A DNA stretch of 64,000 nucleotides from Gemmatimonadales bacterium (lineage in GTDB: Bacteria; Gemmatimonadota; Gemmatimonadetes; Gemmatimonadales; JACORV01), in NCBI GenBank assembly GCA_035623395.1, contig DASPTN010000086.1, positions 97,606 through 161,605 of the forward strand, read 5' to 3'. Position numbers and translations under genes: made by a program. The notes under the pieces are model-generated. The model made no database searches and was not told where the DNA came from. It was given only the letters and a program-made list of their open reading frames with translations. Positions 3,180 to 61,952 of the stretch are shown piece by piece. Position 1 is the first letter of the stretch, and each line of letters opens with the position of its first letter.

Positions 3180-3200
3180 GTGAGAGGTGAAGGGAGCGAC
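3180..3200 (+). repeat. Short remnant (2-3 units) of the GTGAGAN heptamer element
   Basis: GTGAGAG GTGAAGG GAGCGAC; compare the full arrays at 18105 and 42688. Provides a GAGGTGA/GGGAG SD-like sequence before ATG 3203. Confidence 0.35.
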
Positions 3201-15123: not shown

Positions 15124-16602
15124 ATGACCGTGGCCGCAACCAGGAATTCCTCCAAGCGCACGACCACCTCCAACGACAAGGCCTCCAGCCCGGCGGACGT
15201 GATCCGCCTCGCGAAGGAGACCGGCGTCCAGGTGGTGGACGTCCGCTTCACCGATCTGCCGGGCACCTGGCAGCACTTCTCGATTCCGGTCGGAGAGCTC
15301 AAGGAAGACATGTTCGAGGAAGGGCTCGGCTTCGACGGCTCGAGCATCCGCGGCTTCCAGGCCATCAACGAGAGCGACATGCTGCTGATGCCGGATCCGG
15401 CGTCCGCGTTCGTCGATCCGTGCCTGAAGGTGCCGACCCTGGTCCTGGTGTGCGACATCAAGGACCCCATCACGGGGGAGCGGTACAGCCGCGACCCGCG
15501 CTACGTGGCGCAGAAGGCCGAGCAGTACCTCGTCAAGAGCGGGATCGCGACCACGTCGTACTGGGGGCCGGAAGCCGAGTTCTACATCTTCAACTCGGTG
15601 CGCTTCGACCAGAACGCCCACGAGGGCTACTACCACATCGACTCGGAAGAGGGGATCTGGAACTCCGGCGAGGACAACGGGTCGCCGAACCTCGGGCACC
15701 GGCCACGGCACAAGGAAGGTTACTTCCCGGTGCCGCCGGTCGACCGGCTGCAGGACCTGCGGTCGAAGATCATGCTGGCCCTGATCGGGTCCGGCATCAA
15801 CGTCGAGGTGCAGCACCACGAGGTCGGGACGGCCGGCCAGGCCGAGATCGACATGCGGTTCGGAACGCTGGTCCGGATGGCGGACCAGGTCATGATGTAC
15901 AAGTACATCGTCAAGGGTGTGTGCCACGACAACGGCTACACGGCGACCTTCATGCCGAAGCCGATGTTCGGCGACAACGGCTCCGGGATGCATGTTCACC
16001 AGAGCCTGTGGAAGAACGGCACGAACCTGTTCTGGTCGGAACGGGGCTACGCCGGGCTGTCGGACATGGCGCGGTTCTACATCGGCGGCCTGATCAAGCA
16101 CGCCCCGGCGGTGCTCGCGTTCGCGGCGCCGACGACCAACTCGTACCGGCGGCTGGTGCCCGGATACGAGGCGCCGATCAATCTGATCTACTCGCAGCGC
16201 AACCGCAGCGCCGTGTGCCGGATTCCGATGTACTCGAAGTCGCCCAAGGCGAAGCGCATCGAGTTCCGCGCACCCGACCCGTCGTCGAACCCGTACCTGA
16301 CCTTCGCCGCGCTGCTGATGGCCGGTCTCGACGGCGTGAAGAACCGGATCGAGCCGCCGGCGCCGATCGACAAGGACCTCTACGATCTCGAGATGCACGA
16401 GCGCAAGCGGGTCAAGAACACGCCCGGCTCGCTGACCGAGGTGCTCGCGGCGCTGGAGAAGGACAGCGAATTCCTACTGCGTGGCGCAGTATTCACGCAG
16501 GACCTGCTCGACACGTGGATCGAGTACAAGACGAAGAAGGAGGTCGAGCCAGTAGCGCTCCGGCCGCATCCGTACGAGTTTTTCCTGTACTACGACGGAT
16601 GA
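15124..16602 (+). CDS. glnA: Glutamine synthetase type I-beta (adenylylation-type)
   Basis: Full-length GS signature (FTDLPGTWQHF, GFDGSSIRGF, MPKPMFGDNGSGMHVHQSLW, NSYRRLVPGYEAP). The IDKDLYDLE motif matches the Tyr adenylylation loop of E. coli-type GlnA. Confidence 0.95.
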   Translation: MTVAATRNSSKRTTTSNDKASSPADVIRLAKETGVQVVDVRFTDLPGTWQHFSIPVGELKEDMFEEGLGFDGSSIRGFQAINESDMLLMPDPASAFVDPCLKVPTLVLVCDIKDPITGERYSRDPRYVAQKAEQYLVKSGIATTSYWGPEAEFYIFNSVRFDQNAHEGYYHIDSEEGIWNSGEDNGSPNLGHRPRHKEGYFPVPPVDRLQDLRSKIMLALIGSGINVEVQHHEVGTAGQAEIDMRFGTLVRMADQVMMYKYIVKGVCHDNGYTATFMPKPMFGDNGSGMHVHQSLWKNGTNLFWSERGYAGLSDMARFYIGGLIKHAPAVLAFAAPTTNSYRRLVPGYEAPINLIYSQRNRSAVCRIPMYSKSPKAKRIEFRAPDPSSNPYLTFAALLMAGLDGVKNRIEPPAPIDKDLYDLEMHERKRVKNTPGSLTEVLAALEKDSEFLLRGAVFTQDLLDTWIEYKTKKEVEPVALRPHPYEFFLYYDG

Positions 16603-16624: not shown

Positions 16625-18100
16625 GTGCCAATGACCCCACGGGCGCGCAGGGTGCGCGCGGCGGTGTCAGGCGAGGCGGGCGCGACGGTCGTCGCGCCCG
16701 TTTCGTCTCATGCCGTGATGCGACCGTTGCCCATGGCCCTGGATGCCGACTACCGCGCGATGGTGCGGTCGAAGGACATCACCAAGGCCGACATCCTGGA
16801 GGTGTGCGACCGCCTCGGCGTGCGCTTCCTCCGGCTCCAGTTCACCGACATCCTCGGCGTGGTGAAGAACGTCGAGGTGCCGCGCAGTCAGTTCGAGAAG
16901 GCGCTCGACGCGCAGATCATGTTCGACGGCTCGTCGATCGAAGGCTTCGTCCGGATCGAGGAGTCGGACATGCTGCTCGCCCCGGACCTCGGCACCTTCC
17001 GGATCTTCCCCTGGGGCGCCGAGAGCGGGCTGGTGGCGCGGCTGATCTGCGACATCCGCAACACCGACGAGTCGGACTTCGCCGGCTGCCCGCGGCTGGC
17101 GCTCAAGCGGCAGGTGGCGCGGGCCCAGAAGCTCGGCTACACGATGATGGCCGGCGTGGAGGCCGAGTTCTTCCTGTTCTACAAGGACGCGCACGGCGAC
17201 CCGACCACCGAGGTGCACGACGTCGCCGGCTACTTCGACGTGGGCCCGGTGGACCGCGGCGAGCAGGCGCGACAGCTGATCGTGGCCGATCTCGAAGAGA
17301 TGGGCTTCGAGGTCGAGGCGGCGCACCACGAGGTGGCGCCCGGACAGCACGAGGTGGATTTCCGCTACGCCGACGCGCTCGAAACCGCCGACGACCTCTC
17401 GACGTTCCGGGTGGTCGTGCGGAGCGCCGCGGAGCGCTACGACCTCGTCGCGTCCTTCATGCCCAAGCCGATCTTCGGGCAGAACGGCTCGGGCATGCAC
17501 ACCCACCAGAGCCTGTTCAGAAACAGCAGTAACGCGTTCTACGACGCCAAGGCCGACTGGCAGCTGTCGAAGGTGGCGCTGCAGTACATCGCGGGGCTGC
17601 TTGAGCACGCGCGCGGCTTCTGCGCGGTCACGAACCCGCTGGTGAACAGCTTCAAGCGCCTGGTGCCGGGTTACGAGGCGCCGGTCAACATCGCCTGGAG
17701 CATGAAGAACCGCTCGCCGATGATCCGGATCCCGGATCGCCGCGAATCGGGAACGCGCTGCGAACTGCGGATGCCCGATCCGTCGGCCAACCCGTACCTG
17801 GCGCTCGCGGTGCAGCTCGCGGCGGGCCTGGACGGAATCGAGCGCAAGCTGACGCCGCCCGACCCGGTGAACAAGAACATCTTCACGATGACGTACCGGG
17901 AGCGCCGGCACCACCGGATCGACGACCTGCCCCGGGACCTGCACGAGGCGCTGGATTGCCTCGAGAGGGACCCGGTGATTTTGGGTGCGCTCGGCGAGCA
18001 CATCGCCGGCCGCTACGTCGAGGCCAAGCGCGCGGAGTGGGCGGAGTACATCTCGCAGGTCAGCGAGTGGGAGATCAGGAAGTATCTGGGACAGTACTGA
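16625..18100 (+). CDS. Glutamine synthetase type I-alpha (Bacillus-type paralogue)
   Basis: RLQFTDILGVVKNVEVP, MFDGSSIEGFVRIEESDM, HHEVAPGQHEVDF and NSFKRLVPGYEAP closely follow the B. subtilis GlnA pattern, and there is no adenylylation Tyr motif. The start is ambiguous: ATG 16625 has GGAG, while ATG 16733 and 16760 fit homologue length better. Confidence 0.9.
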   Translation: MPMTPRARRVRAAVSGEAGATVVAPVSSHAVMRPLPMALDADYRAMVRSKDITKADILEVCDRLGVRFLRLQFTDILGVVKNVEVPRSQFEKALDAQIMFDGSSIEGFVRIEESDMLLAPDLGTFRIFPWGAESGLVARLICDIRNTDESDFAGCPRLALKRQVARAQKLGYTMMAGVEAEFFLFYKDAHGDPTTEVHDVAGYFDVGPVDRGEQARQLIVADLEEMGFEVEAAHHEVAPGQHEVDFRYADALETADDLSTFRVVVRSAAERYDLVASFMPKPIFGQNGSGMHTHQSLFRNSSNAFYDAKADWQLSKVALQYIAGLLEHARGFCAVTNPLVNSFKRLVPGYEAPVNIAWSMKNRSPMIRIPDRRESGTRCELRMPDPSANPYLALAVQLAAGLDGIERKLTPPDPVNKNIFTMTYRERRHHRIDDLPRDLHEALDCLERDPVILGALGEHIAGRYVEAKRAEWAEYISQVSEWEIRKYLGQY

Positions 18101-18104
18101 AGGC

Positions 18105-18179
18105 GTGAGAGGTGAGGGGTGAGAAGCGAGAGGATCAAGAGAGAGGTGAGAAGGCGCAGTGAGAGGTGAGAAGGTGATT
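18105..18179 (+). repeat. Tandem heptamer array (GTGAGAN)x10, tandem SD-like GAGGTGA motifs
   Basis: GTGAGAG GTGAGGG GTGAGAA GCGAGAG GATCAA GAGAGAG GTGAGAA GGCGCA GTGAGAG GTGAGAA GGTGATT. Shares a 20-mer and its unit architecture with 42688..42755. Confidence 0.85.
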
Positions 18180-18968
18180 CCCGGCGCCGGGGCCGCGAGC
18201 CCCGGCGCCGTGCTGCTGGACCTGGACGGGACGCTGTACACCGACGCGGGGGCGGTTCCCGGCGCGGTGGAGGCGCTGGCCGAGCTGCGGCGCCGCGGCG
18301 TCCCGTTCCGCTACGTGACCAATACCACGCGCCGTTCGCGCCGCCGCCTGGCCGCCCGCCTGGAAGGCTACGGGTTCCGCGCGCCGGCCGCCGAGATCAT
18401 CTCCGCTCCGCTGGCCGGCGTCGCGCTGCTCGAGGGCCGCGGCGTGCGCCGGGTCGCCGCCTACGTCGCCGACGAGACCCTGGAGGACTTCGAGGCCTTC
18501 GACCTCACGTCCGCCCGGCCGGAGGCCGTGGTGGTCGGGGACCTGGGCGACGCGTGGGATTTCGCGAAGCTGAACCGCGCGTTCCTCCAGCTGATGGACG
18601 GCGCCGAACTGATCGCGCTCCAGCGCGACCGCTACTGGCTGCGGGAGGACGGCCTCGCGCTCGACGCCGGACCGTTCGTGGCCGCGCTCGAGTACGCGAC
18701 CGGCACGACGGCCGTGCTGTGCGGAAAGCCTTCGGGTTCGTTCTACCGCGCGGCGCTGGCGTCGCTGCCGGAGGCGGTCGCGGCGGAGCCCGGCCGGGTG
18801 GTCATGGTCGGCGATGACCTGTGGGGCGACGTCCAGGGCGCGCAGCGCGCGGGGCTCACCGCGTGGATGGTGCGGACCGGCAAGTTCCGCCCCGACGTGG
18901 TGGCCTCGAGCGGCATCACCCCCGATCGGATCATCGACTCCGTCGCGGACCTGCCCGACCTCGTCTAG
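18159..18968 (+). CDS. HAD-IIA family hydrolase
   Basis: VLLDLDGTLY (motif I), YVTNTTRRS and MVGDDLWGDVQGA (motif IV) fit NagD/HAD-IIA. The start is GTG 18159 or GTG 18174, both inside the heptamer array. Confidence 0.8.
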   Translation: MRGEKVIPGAGAASPGAVLLDLDGTLYTDAGAVPGAVEALAELRRRGVPFRYVTNTTRRSRRRLAARLEGYGFRAPAAEIISAPLAGVALLEGRGVRRVAAYVADETLEDFEAFDLTSARPEAVVVGDLGDAWDFAKLNRAFLQLMDGAELIALQRDRYWLREDGLALDAGPFVAALEYATGTTAVLCGKPSGSFYRAALASLPEAVAAEPGRVVMVGDDLWGDVQGAQRAGLTAWMVRTGKFRPDVVASSGITPDRIIDSVADLPDLV

Positions 18969-32326: not shown

Positions 32327-32398
<72 letters not shown>

Positions 32399-41930: not shown

Positions 41931-42683
41931 TCACACCTTGTGGTAGGTGACCCGCGCGGCCTCGGCGCCGTCCTCCGCCCGGTAGGTCTCGAAATCGCCG
42001 AACAGGCGCGGCGCCTCCGCCGTGAGCAGGCGCAGCACCGCCACCGCCATCCGCCGGATCTCCTGCTCCGCCCCCTCGCCGCACCGCAGCTCGAGCATCG
42101 TGCGCCAGGCGCGCACGTTGGCGCTCACCACGAGCTTGGTCTCGGTCGCGTTCGGCAGCAGCGAGCGCGCGGCCTCGCGCGCCATCTTCCGGCGGTGGAC
42201 CTTGTCCGCCACCCAGTCGTACCGCCGCATCAGGTCCTCGACGGCCTGAACGTACGCGGCCTGGGCCGCCGTCACCTGCGCCAGCCACTCGGCCTCCAGC
42301 TTCGCATCCCCCAGCATGGCCGGTGGCACCACGAACGCCGCGTGCGACTCGTCCACGTAGCGCTGGCTGAGCTGGCTGTAGCCGAAGCCGGCGCGGTGGC
42401 GCACCAGCTCGTGCGAGCAGGAGCGCGAGATGCCCTCGATCAGCAGCACGTAGACGCTGTGCTCGAGCACCGAGCCGTGCCCCTGCTTCTTGATGTTCTC
42501 GAGGTACTCGGCCGTGGAGCGCTGCGCCGGGTTGGCTTGGCTCATGTAGCACAGCCGGCCGGCGAACTCGGCCAGCTTCTCGGCGTCCGTGGCCTCGCCG
42601 CGCCAGCTGACGCGAAGGTGGGTGGGTTCCACGAATTGCGGACGGGCTAGGAGGGTGACCCGGGGTGCGCGGAGAATGTCCAC
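41931..42683 (-). CDS. thyX: FAD-dependent thymidylate synthase
   Basis: ThyX signature ...SHELVRHRAGFGYSQLSQRY (RHR...SxR). 250 aa. GTG start 42683 has no SD upstream. Confidence 0.9.
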   Translation of the reverse strand: MDILRAPRVTLLARPQFVEPTHLRVSWRGEATDAEKLAEFAGRLCYMSQANPAQRSTAEYLENIKKQGHGSVLEHSVYVLLIEGISRSCSHELVRHRAGFGYSQLSQRYVDESHAAFVVPPAMLGDAKLEAEWLAQVTAAQAAYVQAVEDLMRRYDWVADKVHRRKMAREAARSLLPNATETKLVVSANVRAWRTMLELRCGEGAEQEIRRMAVAVLRLLTAEAPRLFGDFETYRAEDGAEAARVTYHKV

Positions 42684-42687
42684 TAGT

Positions 42688-42755
42688 GTGAGAGGTGAGA
42701 GGTGAGGGGTGAGACGTTCACGTGAGACGTGAGAAGTGGAAGTGAGAGGTAAGCG
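42688..42755 (+). repeat. Tandem heptamer array (GTGAGAN)x10, homologous to 18105..18172
   Basis: GTGAGAG GTGAGAG GTGAGGG GTGAGAC GTTCAC GTGAGAC GTGAGAA GTGGAA GTGAGAG GTAAGCG. Identical 20-mer GTGAGAGGTGAGGGGTGAGA at 42695..42714 and 18105..18124. Confidence 0.85.
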
Positions 42756-42764
42756 TCCATCGTC

Positions 42765-44372
42765 TCACGCCGCCGCGGGCGCCAGCGACAACCGGAACAC
42801 GCCCCAGGCCGCGGAGCGCTCGACCTCGCGCAGCCGCGCGGCGATCTCGGCCGGGATCGGCGGAGCGGCCGCGCCGACCTTGAGCATCGAGGCGTCGAGC
42901 TTCGCGCCCGGCGCCGGCACCTTCACGCCCGGGTTGAGGATCCCCGCCGGGTCCCACGCCTCCTTGGTGCGCCGGCACAGGTCGGCGTAGCCCTCGCCGA
43001 ACGTCGACGCCAGGAAGGGCGCGCGCAGCCGTCCGTCGCCGTGCTCGCCCGACGGCGTTCCCCCGAGCGACAGCTGGGCTCCGGTCACCGCCTCGAGGCA
43101 TCCGAACAGGCGAGTGGCGAAATCGGGCGCCGCGACGTTGGCCAGCACGTTGGCGTGGAGATGCCCGTCCCCGGCGTGCCCGAAGATCACGATCTCGAAG
43201 CCGAACGCGGCCGCCGCCTCGCGGAGCGCACGGATGTAGCGGCCGAGGACCGCGACCGGCACGCAGCCGTCCTCGACCAGCTGCAGCGAGCGGAGGTTGT
43301 TCGGCAGCGACGCCAGGATGGGGCTCGCGAGGTGACGGAGCTCCCACAGCCGGCTCACCGACGCGACGTCGTCGGCCAGCTCGGTCGTCTCGGCGAGGCC
43401 CCGCACCGCGCCGACGGCCTGGTGTCCGTCGCTCTCGAACTCGACCAGCAGGACCGCCTCGGTGCCGTCGGGCACCCGGCGCTGGATGGCGCCGCGCACG
43501 AAATCGAGATAGGTGCGGTCCAGCAGCTCGATCGCCGAGGGCCCGTGCGGGCGCAGCGCGAGCACCGCGGGCCCGACGTCGTCGAGCGAGCGCAACGTCA
43601 CGAGCAGCGTGGAGCGATCGTCCGGCAGCGGCGCGAGGGCGACCTCGACGGCGGTCACGACGGCCAGCGTGCCCTCGCTGCCGGTCAGCAGCTCGGCCGT
43701 GCGCCCGCTGGCGGCGTACGCGTCGAGCGCGTAGCCGGCGGAGTTCTTGGTCGTGCGGGGCACCGCGCCGGCCAGGTCCGCGGCGCGCTCGCGGAGACCC
43801 GGAGCCACTTCGCGCAGGAACCGTTGCTCGGCCGCCGTCGGCGGCGGCAGGCTCGCGGCGCCGTCGACCGCGCCGGCTTCGCCGTCGGCCGTCACGAACT
43901 CCAGGCCACGCACCCAGCGCCGCATCGCGCCGTACTTCACGCTGTGCGCGCCGGCGGCGTTGGTGGCGACCATGCCGCCCAGCGTGCAGAACGCGCCGCT
44001 CGACGGGTCCGGCGGCAGCCTGAGCCCGTAGCCGGCGGCGGCAGCGTTGAGCGCCTGGTACGTGATGGACGCACCGCACCGCGCCGTCCCCGCCGCCGCG
44101 TCGATCGCCGGCGGCTCACGGAAGCCTGCCGAGAGGTCCACCACGACGCCGGGGCCGATGTTCCCGCCGGGCATCCCGCTGCCGGCGCCCCGGGGCACCA
44201 GGGCGTGCCCGCCGGCCCGGGCCCAGTGCACGAGCGCGACCAGGTCGTCGCGGCCCGCCGGCACGGCGACGGCCTCGGGTACGATGCGGAAAATGCCCGC
44301 GCCCTCGGCGTACAGGGCGCGGGCGACGTCGTCGGTGCGGAACTCTCCGCGGAAGCCGGGGGGGGCGCGCAC
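42765..44372 (-). CDS. FAD-linked oxidase (GlcD/D-lactate dehydrogenase-like)
   Basis: FAD_binding_4 pattern (VPRGAGSGMPGGNIG) and a C-terminal FAD-oxidase_C region (GTPSGEHGDGRLR). Confidence 0.8.
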   Translation of the reverse strand: MRAPPGFRGEFRTDDVARALYAEGAGIFRIVPEAVAVPAGRDDLVALVHWARAGGHALVPRGAGSGMPGGNIGPGVVVDLSAGFREPPAIDAAAGTARCGASITYQALNAAAAGYGLRLPPDPSSGAFCTLGGMVATNAAGAHSVKYGAMRRWVRGLEFVTADGEAGAVDGAASLPPPTAAEQRFLREVAPGLRERAADLAGAVPRTTKNSAGYALDAYAASGRTAELLTGSEGTLAVVTAVEVALAPLPDDRSTLLVTLRSLDDVGPAVLALRPHGPSAIELLDRTYLDFVRGAIQRRVPDGTEAVLLVEFESDGHQAVGAVRGLAETTELADDVASVSRLWELRHLASPILASLPNNLRSLQLVEDGCVPVAVLGRYIRALREAAAAFGFEIVIFGHAGDGHLHANVLANVAAPDFATRLFGCLEAVTGAQLSLGGTPSGEHGDGRLRAPFLASTFGEGYADLCRRTKEAWDPAGILNPGVKVPAPGAKLDASMLKVGAAAPPIPAEIAARLREVERSAAWGVFRLSLAPAAA

Positions 44373-60873: not shown

Positions 60874-61650
60874 ATGGATCGCCTCGCTTCCCTTCCCCCT
60901 CCCGGCAAGCTCGGCGGCACGTTCCTGTGGGAAGGCATCATCAACGGACCGGTGCGCTCGAGGCGTCTGGGCGTCAGCCTCGGCCTGAACCTGATTCCGC
61001 TGCGCTCCAAGCTCTGCACCTTCGACTGCCCCTACTGCGAATGCGGCCTCAACACCCCGAAGGCGCCGCGTTCGCGGTGGCCGTCGCCGGACCTGGTGGC
61101 CGATGCCCTGCGGAAGACGCTGGAGTACCTGGGCGAGCCGCCGGACCGGGTGACGTTCGCGGGCAACGGGGAGCCGACGATGCATCCGCGCTTCGCGCTG
61201 GTGGTCGAGCGCGTGCTGGAGGTGCGCGACCGTCTGGCGCCGGGCCTCATGGTCGCGGTGATGTCGAACGGCCTGTCGTGCGGCAAGCCGGCCGTGCGGA
61301 GCGCCCTCGATCGCGTCGACGAGCGGCTGATGAAGCTGGACCCCGGTCCGCCGGCGCTGGTGAACGGCGTCGCCTACGACCGCCGCCGGCTCGTCGAGGA
61401 CCTTCGCGGCCTGGTGGACGTGACGGTGCAGGCACTCGTGGTGCAGGGGCCCGGGTATGACGGAGCCTCGGAGGAATCGGTCGGGGAGTGGCTGGCGGCG
61501 CTGGCGCGGCTGCAGCCGAAGGCCGTGCAGGTCTACTCGATCGCACGGCCCCCGGCGGACCCGCGGGTACGCCCCGTCGCGCGCGCGCAGCTCGAGGCGA
61601 TCGCGGCGCGCGCGCGGCGGGTCATCTCAGGCAGCGTCGAGGTCTTCTAG
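60874..61650 (+). CDS. Radical SAM domain protein (small, no SPASM extension)
   Basis: ORF 59251..61650 trimmed to ATG 60874. CTFDCPYC is the CX3CX2C cluster motif, followed by FAGNGEPT (SAM-binding GGE-like). 258 aa. Confidence 0.75.
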   Translation: MDRLASLPPPGKLGGTFLWEGIINGPVRSRRLGVSLGLNLIPLRSKLCTFDCPYCECGLNTPKAPRSRWPSPDLVADALRKTLEYLGEPPDRVTFAGNGEPTMHPRFALVVERVLEVRDRLAPGLMVAVMSNGLSCGKPAVRSALDRVDERLMKLDPGPPALVNGVAYDRRRLVEDLRGLVDVTVQALVVQGPGYDGASEESVGEWLAALARLQPKAVQVYSIARPPADPRVRPVARAQLEAIAARARRVISGSVEVF

Positions 61651-61952
61651 CGCTTCTTGGCGCGGCTCTTCTTGCGCTTCGGCGCGGCCTTGCGCTTGGC
61701 CGCCTTGCGGGGCGCCTTCCGCTTGGCCGCCCGGCGGGCCGGCTTCTTCGCCGCCTTCTTCTTCGCGGCCTTCTTGCGCTTCGGGGCCGCCTTCTTCACG
61801 GCGGGCGCCGGCTTGGGCGCCGGCTTCGGCGCGGGTGGCGTGTAGGCCGGCGCGGGCGGCGGCGGACTCCAGGCCGGCGGAGCCGGGGGCTGCGGCGGCA
61901 TGGACGACGGTGGCTCCCAACCTCCGATTCCCGTCATGTCATCGGACAGCAT
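61647..61952 (-). CDS. Histone H1-like Lys/Ala-rich basic protein with Pro-rich N-terminal half
   Basis: From ATG 61952: MLSDDMTGIGGWEPPSSMPPQPPAPPAWSPPPPAPAYTPPAPKPAPKPAPAVKKAAPKRKKAAKKKAAKKPARRAAKRKAPRKAAKRKAAPKRKKSRAKKR. Confidence 0.55.
   Translation of the reverse strand: MLSDDMTGIGGWEPPSSMPPQPPAPPAWSPPPPAPAYTPPAPKPAPKPAPAVKKAAPKRKKAAKKKAAKKPARRAAKRKAPRKAAKRKAAPKRKKSRAKKR

What the first reader, a model, noticed from the sequence alone, without database searches (positions are those of the whole stretch)
18105..18179. 68-nt array of ten GTGAGAN heptamers forming in-phase Shine-Dalgarno mimics between the GS paralogue and a HAD hydrolase gene
Immediately after the GS stop the + strand reads GTGAGAG GTGAGGG GTGAGAA GCGAGAG GATCAA GAGAGAG GTGAGAA GGCGCA GTGAGAG GTGAGAA GGTGATT. 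This is a strict 7-nt periodicity with two degenerate 6-nt units. Each GAG|GTGA junction creates GAGGTGA, an exact complement of the conserved 16S rRNA 3' tail (..UCACCUC..). The transcript therefore carries at least three perfect and several partial SD sequences spaced 7 or 14 nt apart. They run into the two candidate GTG starts of the downstream gene (18159, 18174). A homologous copy lies at 42688..42755 and a remnant at 3180..3200. It is not palindromic (so not REP-like) and has no spacers (so not CRISPR). I do not recognise it as a described element. Possible roles are a ribosome standby or loading pad, a ribosome or protein sponge, or a DNA-level protein-binding array.
Basis: partly seen in the sequence, partly recalled or inferred. 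Interest (0 to 1): 0.6.

Follow-up and report, generated by a model that had tools for sequence, protein, structure and literature searches.

The report
Half-copy of a heptamer-armed hairpin repeat
The GTGAGAG array is real, but it is one arm of a high-copy intergenic hairpin repeat of a Gemmatimonadales lineage, not a purpose-built ribosome pad; the same arms enclose genes for the 23S-rRNA-intervening-sequence protein, which may explain why 7-nt repeats are so common in bacteria.

Summary
The array at 18105-18179 and its copy at 42688-42754 are real and well above chance. They are not free-running microsatellites. Both share a fixed layout: 4 heptamers, GWTCAM, 2 heptamers, a 6-10-nt spacer, then 1-2 heptamers. 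That layout recurs in at least 300 arms in about 1 Mb of related contigs. Most arms (228 of 302) sit in inverted pairs of about 155 nt, always purine arm first, and a pair folds into an RNA hairpin of about -106 kcal/mol. Elements lie next to gene 3' ends and are almost absent between divergent genes. Single arms show no orientation bias (17 sense, 15 antisense), and window copy 2 is antisense, so an SD-mimic role is not general. Copy 1 probably does supply the start codon and SD of the HAD gene. Both copies are kept at orthologous sites in relatives of 86-89% identity. In two family loci the same arms enclose a 23S_rRNA_IVP (four-helix-bundle) gene. About 20 independent IVP genes in other phyla are also bracketed by lineage-specific 7-8-nt arrays. 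My best reading is that the arrays are decayed halves of an ORF-less form of an intervening-sequence-like cassette. I did not test RNase III processing or IVP binding.

The parts
18105..18179 (+). Arm copy 1 (single purine-rich arm). H1-H4 18105-18132; GATCAA 18133-18138; H5-H6 18139-18152; spacer GGCGCA 18153-18158; H7-H8 18159-18172; GGTGATT 18173-18179.
   Evidence: nhmmer hit 18094-18178, E 6.6e-13. Conserved in the orthologous contig L122, which has 22 nt more at the 5' end and 6 nt fewer near the 3' end.
18159..18161 (+). GTG inside heptamer H7: probable start codon of the HAD gene. It is the only in-frame start conserved in L122. GTG 18174 is deleted in L122, and GTG 18210 is TTC there.
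   Evidence: Alignment of the window with L122. The Pfam HAD domains begin at residue 18 of the ORF that starts at 18159. The start itself is inferred, not shown.
18182..18210 (+). GC-rich 12-bp hairpin (CGGCGCCGGGGC / GCCCCGGCGCCG) just downstream of the arm, inside the 5' end of the HAD ORF.
   Evidence: RNA fold. Conserved in L122 with a changed loop. Role unknown.
16625..18100 (+). Glutamine synthetase gene. Its stop codon is at 18098-18100, 4 nt before the arm.
   Evidence: Gln-synt_C E 2.7e-132.
18159..18968 (+). HAD-family hydrolase gene.
   Evidence: Hydrolase_like, Hydrolase_6.
42688..42754 (+). Arm copy 2 (single purine-rich arm on the + strand, antisense to both flanking genes). H1-H4 42688-42715; GTTCAC 42716-42721; H5-H6 42722-42735; spacer GTGGAA 42736-42741; H7 42742-42748; GTAAGC 42749-42754.
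   Evidence: nhmmer hit 42678-42772, E 2.8e-22. Conserved in orthologues L193 and L130.
42761..42771 (+). CGTCTCACGCC: probable stub of the lost pyrimidine-rich partner arm. It contains the stop codon (TCA = TGA on the minus strand, 42765-42767) of the FAD-oxidase gene.
   Evidence: by comparison with the family consensus ...CCTCTCACGCC. This is an inference.
41931..42683 (-). thyX (Thy1) gene. Its start at 42683 (GTG here, ATG in L193 and L130) lies 4 nt from the arm, and the 5' leader is the C-rich strand with no SD.
42765..44372 (-). FAD-linked oxidase gene that ends at the element.

Best explanation
Each window array is a single arm (half-copy) of a lineage-specific, high-copy intergenic palindromic repeat of a Gemmatimonadales bacterium. 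The full element is about 155 nt. It has a purine-rich arm of about 68 nt built from GTGAGAG heptamers with fixed interruptions (GTTCAM and a 6-10-nt spacer), a short loop, and the complementary CTCTCAC arm. The same arms enclose a 23S_rRNA_IVP (four-helix-bundle, TIGR02436) gene in some copies, so the short elements are most likely the ORF-less form of an intervening-sequence-like cassette. These elements sit in transcribed spacers next to gene 3' ends. When co-transcribed, a full element folds into a stem of about 65 bp. By analogy with 23S rRNA IVSs, that stem should be an RNase III substrate or a 3'-end structure. The two window copies have lost the pyrimidine arm (copy 2 keeps a stub), cannot fold, and are probably inert relics that are simply retained. 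Copy 1 happens to lie in sense orientation and has been co-opted as the leader of the HAD gene, supplying its GTG start and an SD-like GAGGTGA. Copy 2 is antisense and supplies no SD. SHOWN: the fixed architecture, copy number, pairing polarity, fold energy, placement bias, lack of orientation bias, orthologous conservation, and the IVP genes inside the same arms. INFERRED: derivation from IVP cassettes, co-transcription, RNase III processing, relic status of the window copies, and use of GTG 18159.
For: Both window arrays and two arms in the Gemmatimonadales MAG contig L029 share the fixed composite layout. These hold 232 pattern matches and 302 HMM-detected arms in 997 kb. There are 114 inverted pairs, always purine arm then pyrimidine arm, and 0 of the opposite polarity; 74 arms are single. 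The pair L139:3675-3825 folds at -106.4 kcal/mol with z -11.3, while the window arms alone give z -0.8 and -1.5. Placement of pairs is ++27, --22, convergent 29, divergent 3. Placement of singles is ++17, --15, convergent 16, divergent 0. The background is 202, 177, 98 and 87, and the median distance from a stop codon to the element is 4-6 nt. Singles are 17 sense and 15 antisense. Orthologous contigs L122, L130 and L193 (86-89% identity) keep both window arms at the same sites. Arms of the same composite family enclose IVP genes in L156/L224 and L218/L236. At one orthologous site L176 has an ORF-less pair where L249 has arrays plus an IVP gene. IVP genes elsewhere are bracketed by their own 7-8-nt arrays: 20 of 22 loci, 18 of them on both sides. 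In the Coxiella 23S IVS, heptamers sit in the RNase III-cut stem upstream of the S23p ORF (PMC4990558). In Xanthomonas a GGGAATC array overlaps the start of XCC0516, which is the PDB 2GSC IVP homologue. In three Nostocales plasmids only the arm-IVP-arm module is homologous and the flanks are unrelated.
Against: The two arms of a pair do not covary. Identity between the left arm and the reverse complement of the right arm is 0.780 within pairs and 0.793 between pairs. So there is no signal of selection for base pairing beyond each arm staying near the consensus. The GTGAG positions are conserved at 0.9 or more. Both points fit sequence-specific recognition at least as well as an RNA-stem function. 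I found no remnants of the IVP ORF in the loops of ORF-less pairs. At the shared site, L176 and L249 carry different heptamer types, so that case may be two independent insertions rather than a deletion derivative. I found no empty sites or recent insertions, so mobility is not shown, and that sample was selected for contigs that contain elements. Transcription and RNase III cleavage were not testable. Only about 1% of arrays have an IVP gene next to them, so the direction of the relationship is open: arrays may derive from cassettes, or cassettes may recruit pre-existing arrays.
Confidence: 0.65

Rival explanations
1. DNA-level or RNA-level protein-binding array. A factor recognises GTGAG (or TCAC) every 7 nt. 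It could be the pentameric IVP protein or a nucleoid-associated protein, comparable to the omega repressor, which binds tandem 7-bp WATCACW heptads. Arms would then be kept near the consensus because each heptamer is a binding site, and single arms such as those in the window would still be functional.
For: Heptamer positions 1-5 are conserved at 0.83-0.99, while positions 6-7 vary. The arms do not covary. Orthologous arms have drifted to about the family background (83% against 79%) yet still match the consensus. The heptamer type follows the IVP cassette across hosts. Single arms are retained at orthologous sites. The omega-heptad precedent comes from my own knowledge, not from a tool result.
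Against: No binding factor has been identified. There is no evidence that IVP binds repeats. Heptamer units differ widely between lineages. The universal polarity (purine arm then pyrimidine arm) and the strong hairpin are not needed for a plain binding array.
Confidence: 0.2
2. One reading: the array is an in-phase series of Shine-Dalgarno mimics that acts as a ribosome standby or loading pad, or as a ribosome sponge, for the downstream gene.
For: There are three exact GAGGTGA in array 1. The conserved candidate start GTG 18159 lies inside the arm, with GAGGTGA at 18143-18149 upstream of it. In some other lineages the purine arm provides an SD-like sequence and even the ATG for the IVP ORF, for example L248, L253 and L259-L261.
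Against: Copy 2 is antisense to both neighbouring genes, and thyX starts 4 nt from the C-rich strand with no SD. Family singles are 17 sense and 15 antisense. Elements track gene 3' ends and are nearly absent from divergent promoter regions. Most copies are hairpin pairs, in which the SD-like strand would be sequestered. Permuted heptamers are equally common.
Confidence: 0.07
3. An ordinary heptameric microsatellite (a long SSR or STRR-type repeat) generated in place by polymerase slippage, neutral, with no relationship between copies.
For: Heptameric SSRs are known to be over-represented in bacterial intergenic DNA (cited in PMC4692102). Unit-sized indels do occur between orthologues: 22 nt and 6 nt at array 1, and element identity falls from 83% to 72% when gaps are counted. 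Pure (GTGAGRG)n runs occur in many phyla.
Against: The non-heptamer interruptions (GTTCAM and the spacer) and the 4+2+1-2 unit layout are conserved across more than 200 copies at unrelated loci and in different genomes. The arms pair with fixed polarity. The copies are kept at orthologous sites.
Confidence: 0.03
4. A REP/REPIN-type element mobilised by a RAYT (Y1 HUH transposase), or a classical MITE mobilised in trans by a DNA transposase.
For: The element has an inverted-doublet organisation, is intergenic, is high-copy, lies next to 3' ends and has no target duplication, all of which resemble REPINs.
Against: Individual arms are not palindromic and lack a GTAG-type head. No transposase appeared among the 25 best-ranked Pfam families returned for the window genes or for 42 genes adjacent to elements, though only the top 25 of 62 and 67 families were visible. 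There is no TSD, observed equalling shuffled control. The only gene ever found inside the arms is IVP.
Confidence: 0.05

Closest known systems
23S rRNA intervening sequences (IVS) carrying an S23p/IVP ORF (Coxiella burnetii, Leptospira; PMC4990558)
   Same: A long stem is formed by inverted repeats with a 23S_rRNA_IVP-family ORF in the loop. The element is embedded in a host transcript. Tandem heptamers (GACAGAT x3-4) lie in the stem just upstream of the ORF, and their copy number varies between strains. ORF-less IVSs also exist. In Coxiella, RNase III cuts the stem.
   Different: The elements here lie between protein-coding genes, not in rRNA. They are present in hundreds of copies, most without an ORF. 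The whole arm (about 68 nt) is heptameric with a fixed composite layout. Processing by RNase III is untested. The window copies are single arms with no stem.
Heptameric long SSRs: cyanobacterial STRR, Xanthomonas GGGAATC (PMC4692102), Beggiatoaceae/cyanobacterial/Bacteroidetes TAACTGA (PMC4679880)
   Same: They are intergenic arrays with 7-nt period and a lineage-specific unit, with many copies per genome. They occur singly or as inverted pairs (noted for Xanthomonas), often close to start or stop codons, and their function is unknown.
   Different: Those are described as simple or heterogeneous tandem arrays. Here the arm has conserved non-heptamer interruptions and behaves as a dispersed repeat unit. 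Neither of the two papers examined (PMC4692102, PMC4679880) mentions IVP genes, and none of my six text searches returned a paper making the link, although Rehm's own table places an array on the start of XCC0516.
REP/BIME/REPIN elements and RNase III-processed MITEs (Correia/NEMIS, ERIC); named from my own knowledge
   Same: They are short, high-copy intergenic palindromic elements, co-transcribed with neighbouring genes, mostly at 3' ends. Hairpins of Correia elements are cleaved by RNase III. Decayed singlets are common.
   Different: These elements have no TSD (unlike MITEs). No RAYT was found and there is no GTAG head (unlike REP). The arms are internally periodic (7 nt). The only cargo gene is IVP, which is not a known transposase.
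Omega (RHH) repressor heptad iterons WATCACW of inc18 plasmids; named from my own knowledge
   Same: They are contiguous 7-bp units, in direct or inverted orientation, with a TCAC/GTGA core. This shows that a 7-bp array can be a cooperative protein-binding site.
   Different: Those are plasmid promoter and centromere sites, few per replicon. No RHH partner has been identified here. This is an analogy only.

Membership tests
Simple sequence repeat / microsatellite | Uninterrupted or randomly degenerate tandem copies of one unit, with each locus arising independently | tested here: not met
   The interruptions GWTCAM and the 6-10-nt spacer sit at fixed positions in more than 200 copies.
Simple sequence repeat / microsatellite | Unit-number variation between close relatives | tested here: met
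   Indels of 22 nt and 6 nt between the window and L122. Orthologous identity is 83% without gaps and 72% with gaps.
Dispersed palindromic intergenic repeat (REP/MITE-like in the broad sense) | Many homologous copies at unrelated intergenic loci | tested here: met
Dispersed palindromic intergenic repeat (REP/MITE-like in the broad sense) | Inverted arms able to form a hairpin | tested here: met
   Family: 114 pairs, -106 kcal/mol, z -11.3. The window copies themselves are single arms and do not fold.
MITE | Target-site duplication flanking the element | tested here: not met
   Direct-repeat lengths at the 77 pair boundaries equal the shuffled control.
REP/REPIN-RAYT | An associated RAYT (Y1 transposase) gene flanked by the repeats | tested here: inconclusive
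   None appeared in the Pfam families shown for 38 window genes and 42 element-adjacent genes, but only the top 25 families were visible and no complete genome was available.
REP/REPIN-RAYT | Each REP unit is itself an imperfect palindrome with a conserved GTAG-type head | tested here: not met
   The arms are purine-rich and cannot self-pair.
CRISPR array | Repeats separated by unique spacers of similar length | tested here: not met
   The units are contiguous.
IVS-type cassette (S23p/23S_rRNA_IVP ORF within a stem of inverted repeats) | An IVP-family ORF between the inverted arms | tested here: not met
   There is no IVP gene in the window. One is present between arms of the same family in L156/L224 and L218/L236. 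The window arrays therefore qualify only as ORF-less relatives.
IVS-type cassette (S23p/23S_rRNA_IVP ORF within a stem of inverted repeats) | Heptamer repeats in the stem next to the ORF | tested here: met
   20 of 22 IVP loci have period-7/8 arrays within 150 nt. Coxiella is the precedent.
IVS-type cassette (S23p/23S_rRNA_IVP ORF within a stem of inverted repeats) | Excision or cleavage of the stem by RNase III in the host transcript | not testable with these tools
   This needs RNA end-mapping with and without RNase III.
Shine-Dalgarno / ribosome standby site | Sense orientation in the mRNA upstream of a start codon | tested here: not met
   Met for copy 1 only. Copy 2 is antisense. Family singles are 17 sense and 15 antisense.
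Rfam-described RNA family | A match to a curated covariance model | tested here: not met
   Only tRNAs were found in the window and in 7 element-bearing or IVP-bearing loci.

The most novel reading that the evidence does not exclude
The long-noted excess of 7-nt tandem repeats in bacterial intergenic DNA (STRRs, GGGAATC, TAACTGA, GTGAGAG and others) largely consists of the arms and relics of one widespread, unrecognised class of element. In this class, an 'intervening-sequence' cassette carries a four-helix-bundle IVP gene (a relative of DGR Avd) in the loop of a hairpin whose stems are lineage-specific heptamer arrays. These cassettes insert into transcribed spacers (operon junctions, 3' UTRs, 23S rRNA) and leave abundant ORF-less hairpins and half-arms. 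The IVP pentamer would be the factor that recognises or propagates its own heptamer.
Probability: 0.3. Interest if true: 0.85.

Novelty: new variant of a known kind. Interest (0 to 1): 0.62.

Why it matters
Three poorly understood things would be tied together. The first is the unexplained over-representation of heptameric repeats in bacterial genomes. The second is the 23S rRNA intervening sequences. The third is the very common but functionless 'four helix bundle / S23' proteins related to the DGR accessory protein Avd. If the link holds, heptamer arrays become markers of a specific cassette biology, and the function of IVP proteins becomes directly testable through repeat binding and RNase III-dependent processing. 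There is also a practical point for annotation. Such arrays donate stop codons, start codons and SD-like sequences to neighbouring genes, as with the HAD gene here. They also generate spurious repetitive ORFs.

Tried and rejected
1. Target-site duplications at 77 pair boundaries: none beyond the shuffled control.
2. Conserved flanking target motif: only a weak R-S-C preference before H1.
3. Covariation between arms: none.
4. Orientation of the asymmetric (A/G-type) pair relative to transcription: none, 9 against 7.
5. IVP ORF remnants in the loops of ORF-less pairs by blastn-short: none.
6. Rfam at the gathering threshold on the window and at E<0.01 on seven loci: only tRNAs.
7. Transposase or RAYT among window genes and element-adjacent genes: none seen, but the view was incomplete.
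8. PADLOC defence models for IVP: no hit.
9. Composite pattern in viral contigs: 0 hits. IVP tblastn against phages: no match.
10. Exact-string literature search for GTGAGAGGTGAGAG: 0 papers. Searches linking S23p, IVP or four-helix-bundle protein with heptamers returned only the Coxiella IVS paper.
11. Look-up of P0003: not on record.
12. Empty-site search among orthologous contigs: no clean empty site was found, but the contig set was selected for containing elements.
13. I considered a G-quadruplex role (as proposed for GGGAATC) and a TRAP/HutP-like RNA-binding array. I set both aside without testing them. The G-runs are short, and the lack of strand bias relative to transcription argues against a role tied to one strand of the transcript.

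Full report
OBSERVATION. It has eight heptamers of the GTGAGAG type, two hexamers (GATCAA, GGCGCA) and a terminal GGTGATT. TRF finds period 7, 10.6 copies. A 13-mer of two units with up to 2 mismatches occurs 12 times in the window against 1.6 expected, and no shuffle out of 100 reached 12. Array 1 has three exact GAGGTGA. The window is about 72% G+C. GC3-based gene calls and Pfam place array 1 between a glutamine synthetase gene (16625-18100) and a HAD hydrolase gene (18159-18968). A second array lies at 42688-42754. The proposed remnant at 3180-3200 is two heptamers only, is within chance expectation, and is not found by the family HMM.

NOT A FREE MICROSATELLITE. The two window arrays share a fixed internal layout: four heptamers, a hexamer GWTCAM, two heptamers, an irregular 6-10-nt spacer, then one or two heptamers. 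The same layout occurs twice, back to back and inverted, in contig L029 of a Gemmatimonadales MAG of 74% G+C. In those contigs plus the window and L029 (997 kb, 72% G+C) there are 232 pattern matches. An HMM built from them finds 302 arms. The arm consensus is GTGAGAgGTGAGngGTGAgagGTGAGAcGTTCAcGTGAGAgGTGAGAgGcnnaaaggCGTGAGAgG. The outer boundary is sharp at the first G of H1. The lineage is inferred to be Gemmatimonadales from the title of L029 and from the source name of a 78%-identical protein from a family locus (P0003).

ANATOMY OF THE FAMILY. Of the 302 arms, 228 form 114 inverted pairs with a median length of 155 nt. All 114 are purine-rich arm, then loop, then pyrimidine-rich arm, and none has the opposite polarity. 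The other 74 arms are single, as are both window copies. A typical pair folds as RNA into a stem of about 65 bp at -106.4 kcal/mol, z -11.3. The window arms alone are unstructured, with z -0.8 and -1.5. There is no target-site duplication. The two arms of a pair are no more alike than arms of different pairs (0.780 against 0.793), so there is no compensatory covariation. At some spacer-proximal columns the pairs are preferentially heterotypic: A/G in 47 of 75 and A/A in 3. This suggests copying from an imperfect-palindrome master as a whole unit. That asymmetry has no orientation bias relative to transcription.

PLACEMENT. With GC3-based gene calls, pairs lie between co-directional genes (27 + 22), convergent genes (29) and divergent genes (3). 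Singles give 17 + 15, 16 and 0. The background of intergenic spacers is 202 + 177, 98 and 87. Almost every element therefore adjoins at least one gene 3' end, with a median distance of 4-6 nt from stop codon to element. Part of that closeness is built in. The purine arm carries TGA in all three frames within three units, and from either side an incoming ORF meets the purine arm first. Neighbouring genes are ordinary housekeeping genes.

TEST OF THE SD-MIMIC IDEA. Array 2 lies between two minus-strand genes: thyX (41931-42683) and a FAD-linked oxidase gene (42765-44372). Their transcript therefore carries CTCTCAC. The thyX start (GTG 42683, ATG in two orthologues) is 4 nt from the element and is preceded by CACCTCTCAC, which is not an SD. 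Across the family, single arms between co-directional genes are 17 sense and 15 antisense. In viral contigs, three composition-matched permuted heptamers give 51, 63 and 26 loci against 38 for GTGAGRG, so complementarity to the 16S tail is not what makes such arrays common. The general SD-pad model is therefore not supported.
Locally there is partial support. In the orthologous contig L122 (86% identity) the GTG at 18174 is removed by an in-frame 6-nt deletion, and the GTG at 18210 is TTC. The only conserved in-frame start is the GTG of heptamer H7 (18159), with GAGGTGA at 18143-18149 upstream. Array 1 thus probably supplies the initiation region of the HAD gene. This is inferred, not shown.

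ORTHOLOGUES. Contigs L122, L130 and L193 are syntenic with the window at 86-89% identity. Both arms are present at the same sites. Array 1 has three more units at the 5' end in L122, and array 2 differs from L193 mainly by point substitutions. Over 118 orthologous element comparisons, identity is 83% in aligned columns but 72% when gaps are counted. Flanks are 84.5% identical, and any two arms share a family background of about 79%. Positions are stable, unit numbers drift, and sequences stay near the consensus. That pattern fits constraint or homogenisation. Pair and single states alternate at some orthologous sites, for example L139 against L195 and L133 against L142. This supports the reading of single arms as decayed or truncated elements. 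Array 2 keeps an 11-nt stub (CGTCTCACGCC) of the opposite arm, which contains the stop codon of the oxidase gene.

THE IVP LINK. In L156 (identical to L224) and L218 (identical to L236), full composite arms enclose a 123-153-aa ORF that matches Pfam 23S_rRNA_IVP (E 3e-21) and TIGR02436 'four helix bundle protein'. The orthologous locus in more distant relatives (L240-L242) keeps the arrangement GTGAGAG arm, IVP, CTCTCAC arm. Other IVP loci have the same architecture with other units:
- GTGATGR (L243, between ychF and rpsF).
- GTGAATG (L248, between nuoC and nuoD).
- GGTGATA (L249).
Between the same two genes, L176 carries an ORF-less GTGAGAG pair where L249 carries arrays plus IVP.
A tblastn search of plasmids with the IVP homologue XCC0516 found 26 records, of which I examined 12. 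Each of the 12 shows a tandem array on at least one side of the gene (TRF), and in most I read a purine-rich arm upstream with a complementary pyrimidine-rich arm downstream:
- Gemmatirosa (period 8).
- Nostoc, Stanieria, Calothrix and Anabaena.
- Picosynechococcus (between cas10 and cmr3).
- Geminocystis (between parA and parB).
- Azospirillum.
- Pseudanabaena, the one exception, where the arrays are direct rather than inverted.
By TRF, 20 of 22 IVP loci have period-7/8 arrays within 150 nt, and 18 have them on both sides. In contigs chosen only by arrays (2.36 Mb), hmmsearch found four IVP genes. The three in viral contigs (two of them the same locus) are bracketed by inverted arrays of the heptamer that selected the contig. 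The fourth, L024 (Prevotella), has a different array upstream and a GTGAGAG-type hairpin downstream. In three Nostocales plasmids, nucleotide similarity (78-81%) covers exactly the arm-IVP-arm module and stops at the arm ends, so the cassette is a discrete unit.
Two published data sets agree with this. In the Coxiella 23S rRNA IVS, tandem GACAGAT heptamers lie in the RNase III-cut stem just upstream of the S23p ORF (PMC4990558). In Xanthomonas, a GGGAATC array overlaps the start of XCC0516 (supplement of PMC4692102), and XCC0516 is the IVP homologue of PDB 2GSC. None of my text searches of the library returned a paper that states the general association.

MECHANISM. My best-supported reading is that the window arrays are half-copies of the ORF-less form of an IVS-like cassette. 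Full elements, co-transcribed with the upstream gene, would form long stems that RNase III should cut, as shown for rRNA IVSs. Single arms cannot do this and are probably retained relics, and one of them has been co-opted as a translation-initiation region. The main rival is sequence-specific recognition of the GTGAG cores by a protein, possibly IVP itself. That rival explains the lack of arm covariation and the conservation of five of the seven positions at least as well. I cannot decide between the two with these tools. The direction of the relationship is also open: arrays may derive from cassettes, or cassettes may capture arrays.

LIMITS. All family contigs were selected for containing the pattern, so densities and the lack of empty sites are biased. 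Gene calls are GC3-based. No transcript or protein data exist. The source organism is inferred, not identified.

Noticed in passing
L156:1500-2065; L240:2965-3531; L243:2874-3431; L248:2476-2916; L249:2340-2979; L250-L261; L380:12550-13190; L395:2050-2700: Genes of the 23S_rRNA_IVP / four-helix-bundle family (TIGR02436, relatives of DGR Avd) are almost always bracketed by a purine-rich 7-8-nt tandem array upstream and its reverse complement downstream. The unit differs by lineage: GTGAGAG, GTGATGR, GTGAATG, GGTGACA, GGCAGAR, GGAGATA, GGGAAGA, GGGTGTA, AGTCAGG, GGGAGTA and CTCCTGCC. 20 of 22 loci have arrays within 150 nt.
   Followed up: yes
L253 (cas10|cmr3), L254 and L257 (cas6|cas4), L255 (parA|parB), L248 (nuoC|nuoD), L243 (ychF|rpsF): IVP cassettes sit precisely between cistrons of operons, mostly co-oriented with them. 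Pseudanabaena and Anabaena 90 both have a cassette between cas6 and cas4, but with different heptamers (AAAAGCT against GGTGACA) and no nucleotide similarity inside the cassette. Either the site was hit twice or cassettes turn over in place.
   Followed up: partly
L259, L260, L261 positions 613-1041: In plasmids of three Nostocales genera, similarity of 78-81% covers only the arm-IVP-arm module and the flanks are unrelated. This suggests the cassette moves or is exchanged as a unit.
   Followed up: partly
window 18182-18210: A perfect 12-bp GC hairpin (CGGCGCCGGGGC..GCCCCGGCGCCG) lies just after array 1, inside the 5' end of the HAD ORF. It is conserved in L122 with a different loop. Its role is unknown; it could be a structure affecting HAD initiation or a terminator-like end for the GS transcript.
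   Followed up: partly
window 15124-16602 and 16625-18100: Two tandem glutamine synthetase genes (both Gln-synt_C at about 1e-131), 22 nt apart.
   Followed up: no
Genome-contig loci L001-L120: Pure (GTGAGRG)n arrays occur in many phyla. Gemmatimonadales account for 16 of 120 loci and Prevotellaceae for about 25; others include Chitinophagaceae, Hymenobacter, Verrucomicrobia, Betaproteobacteria, cyanobacteria and Streptomyces. They are often inverted pairs 100-300 bp apart (L028, L038, L063). In Hymenobacter L038 the arrays flank the GTCATCCTGAGCGAAGCGAAGGATC palindrome.
   Followed up: partly
Viral-contig loci L262-L428: Arrays of composition-matched permuted purine-rich heptamers are as frequent as GTGAGRG arrays (26-63 loci each). 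All are far above my own rough, uncomputed estimate of about one chance match for a 20-mer. The general feature is the 7-nt period, not the unit.
   Followed up: yes
window 61640-61835: A cluster of tandem repeats of period 12-27 (for example GCCTTCCGCTTGGCCGCCCGGCGGGCC, TRF score 85). It probably encodes a low-complexity Ala/Lys-rich protein segment on the minus strand.
   Followed up: no
window 32327-32398: A tRNA gene, the only Rfam match in the window.
   Followed up: no
L250 (Gemmatirosa kalamazoonensis plasmid 1, NZ_CP007129.1 1006886-1008606): A cultured Gemmatimonadetes isolate carries an IVP gene flanked by period-8 arrays (GGGCAGGA / CTCCTGCC). The record has no annotation. It is a usable experimental system.
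   Followed up: no
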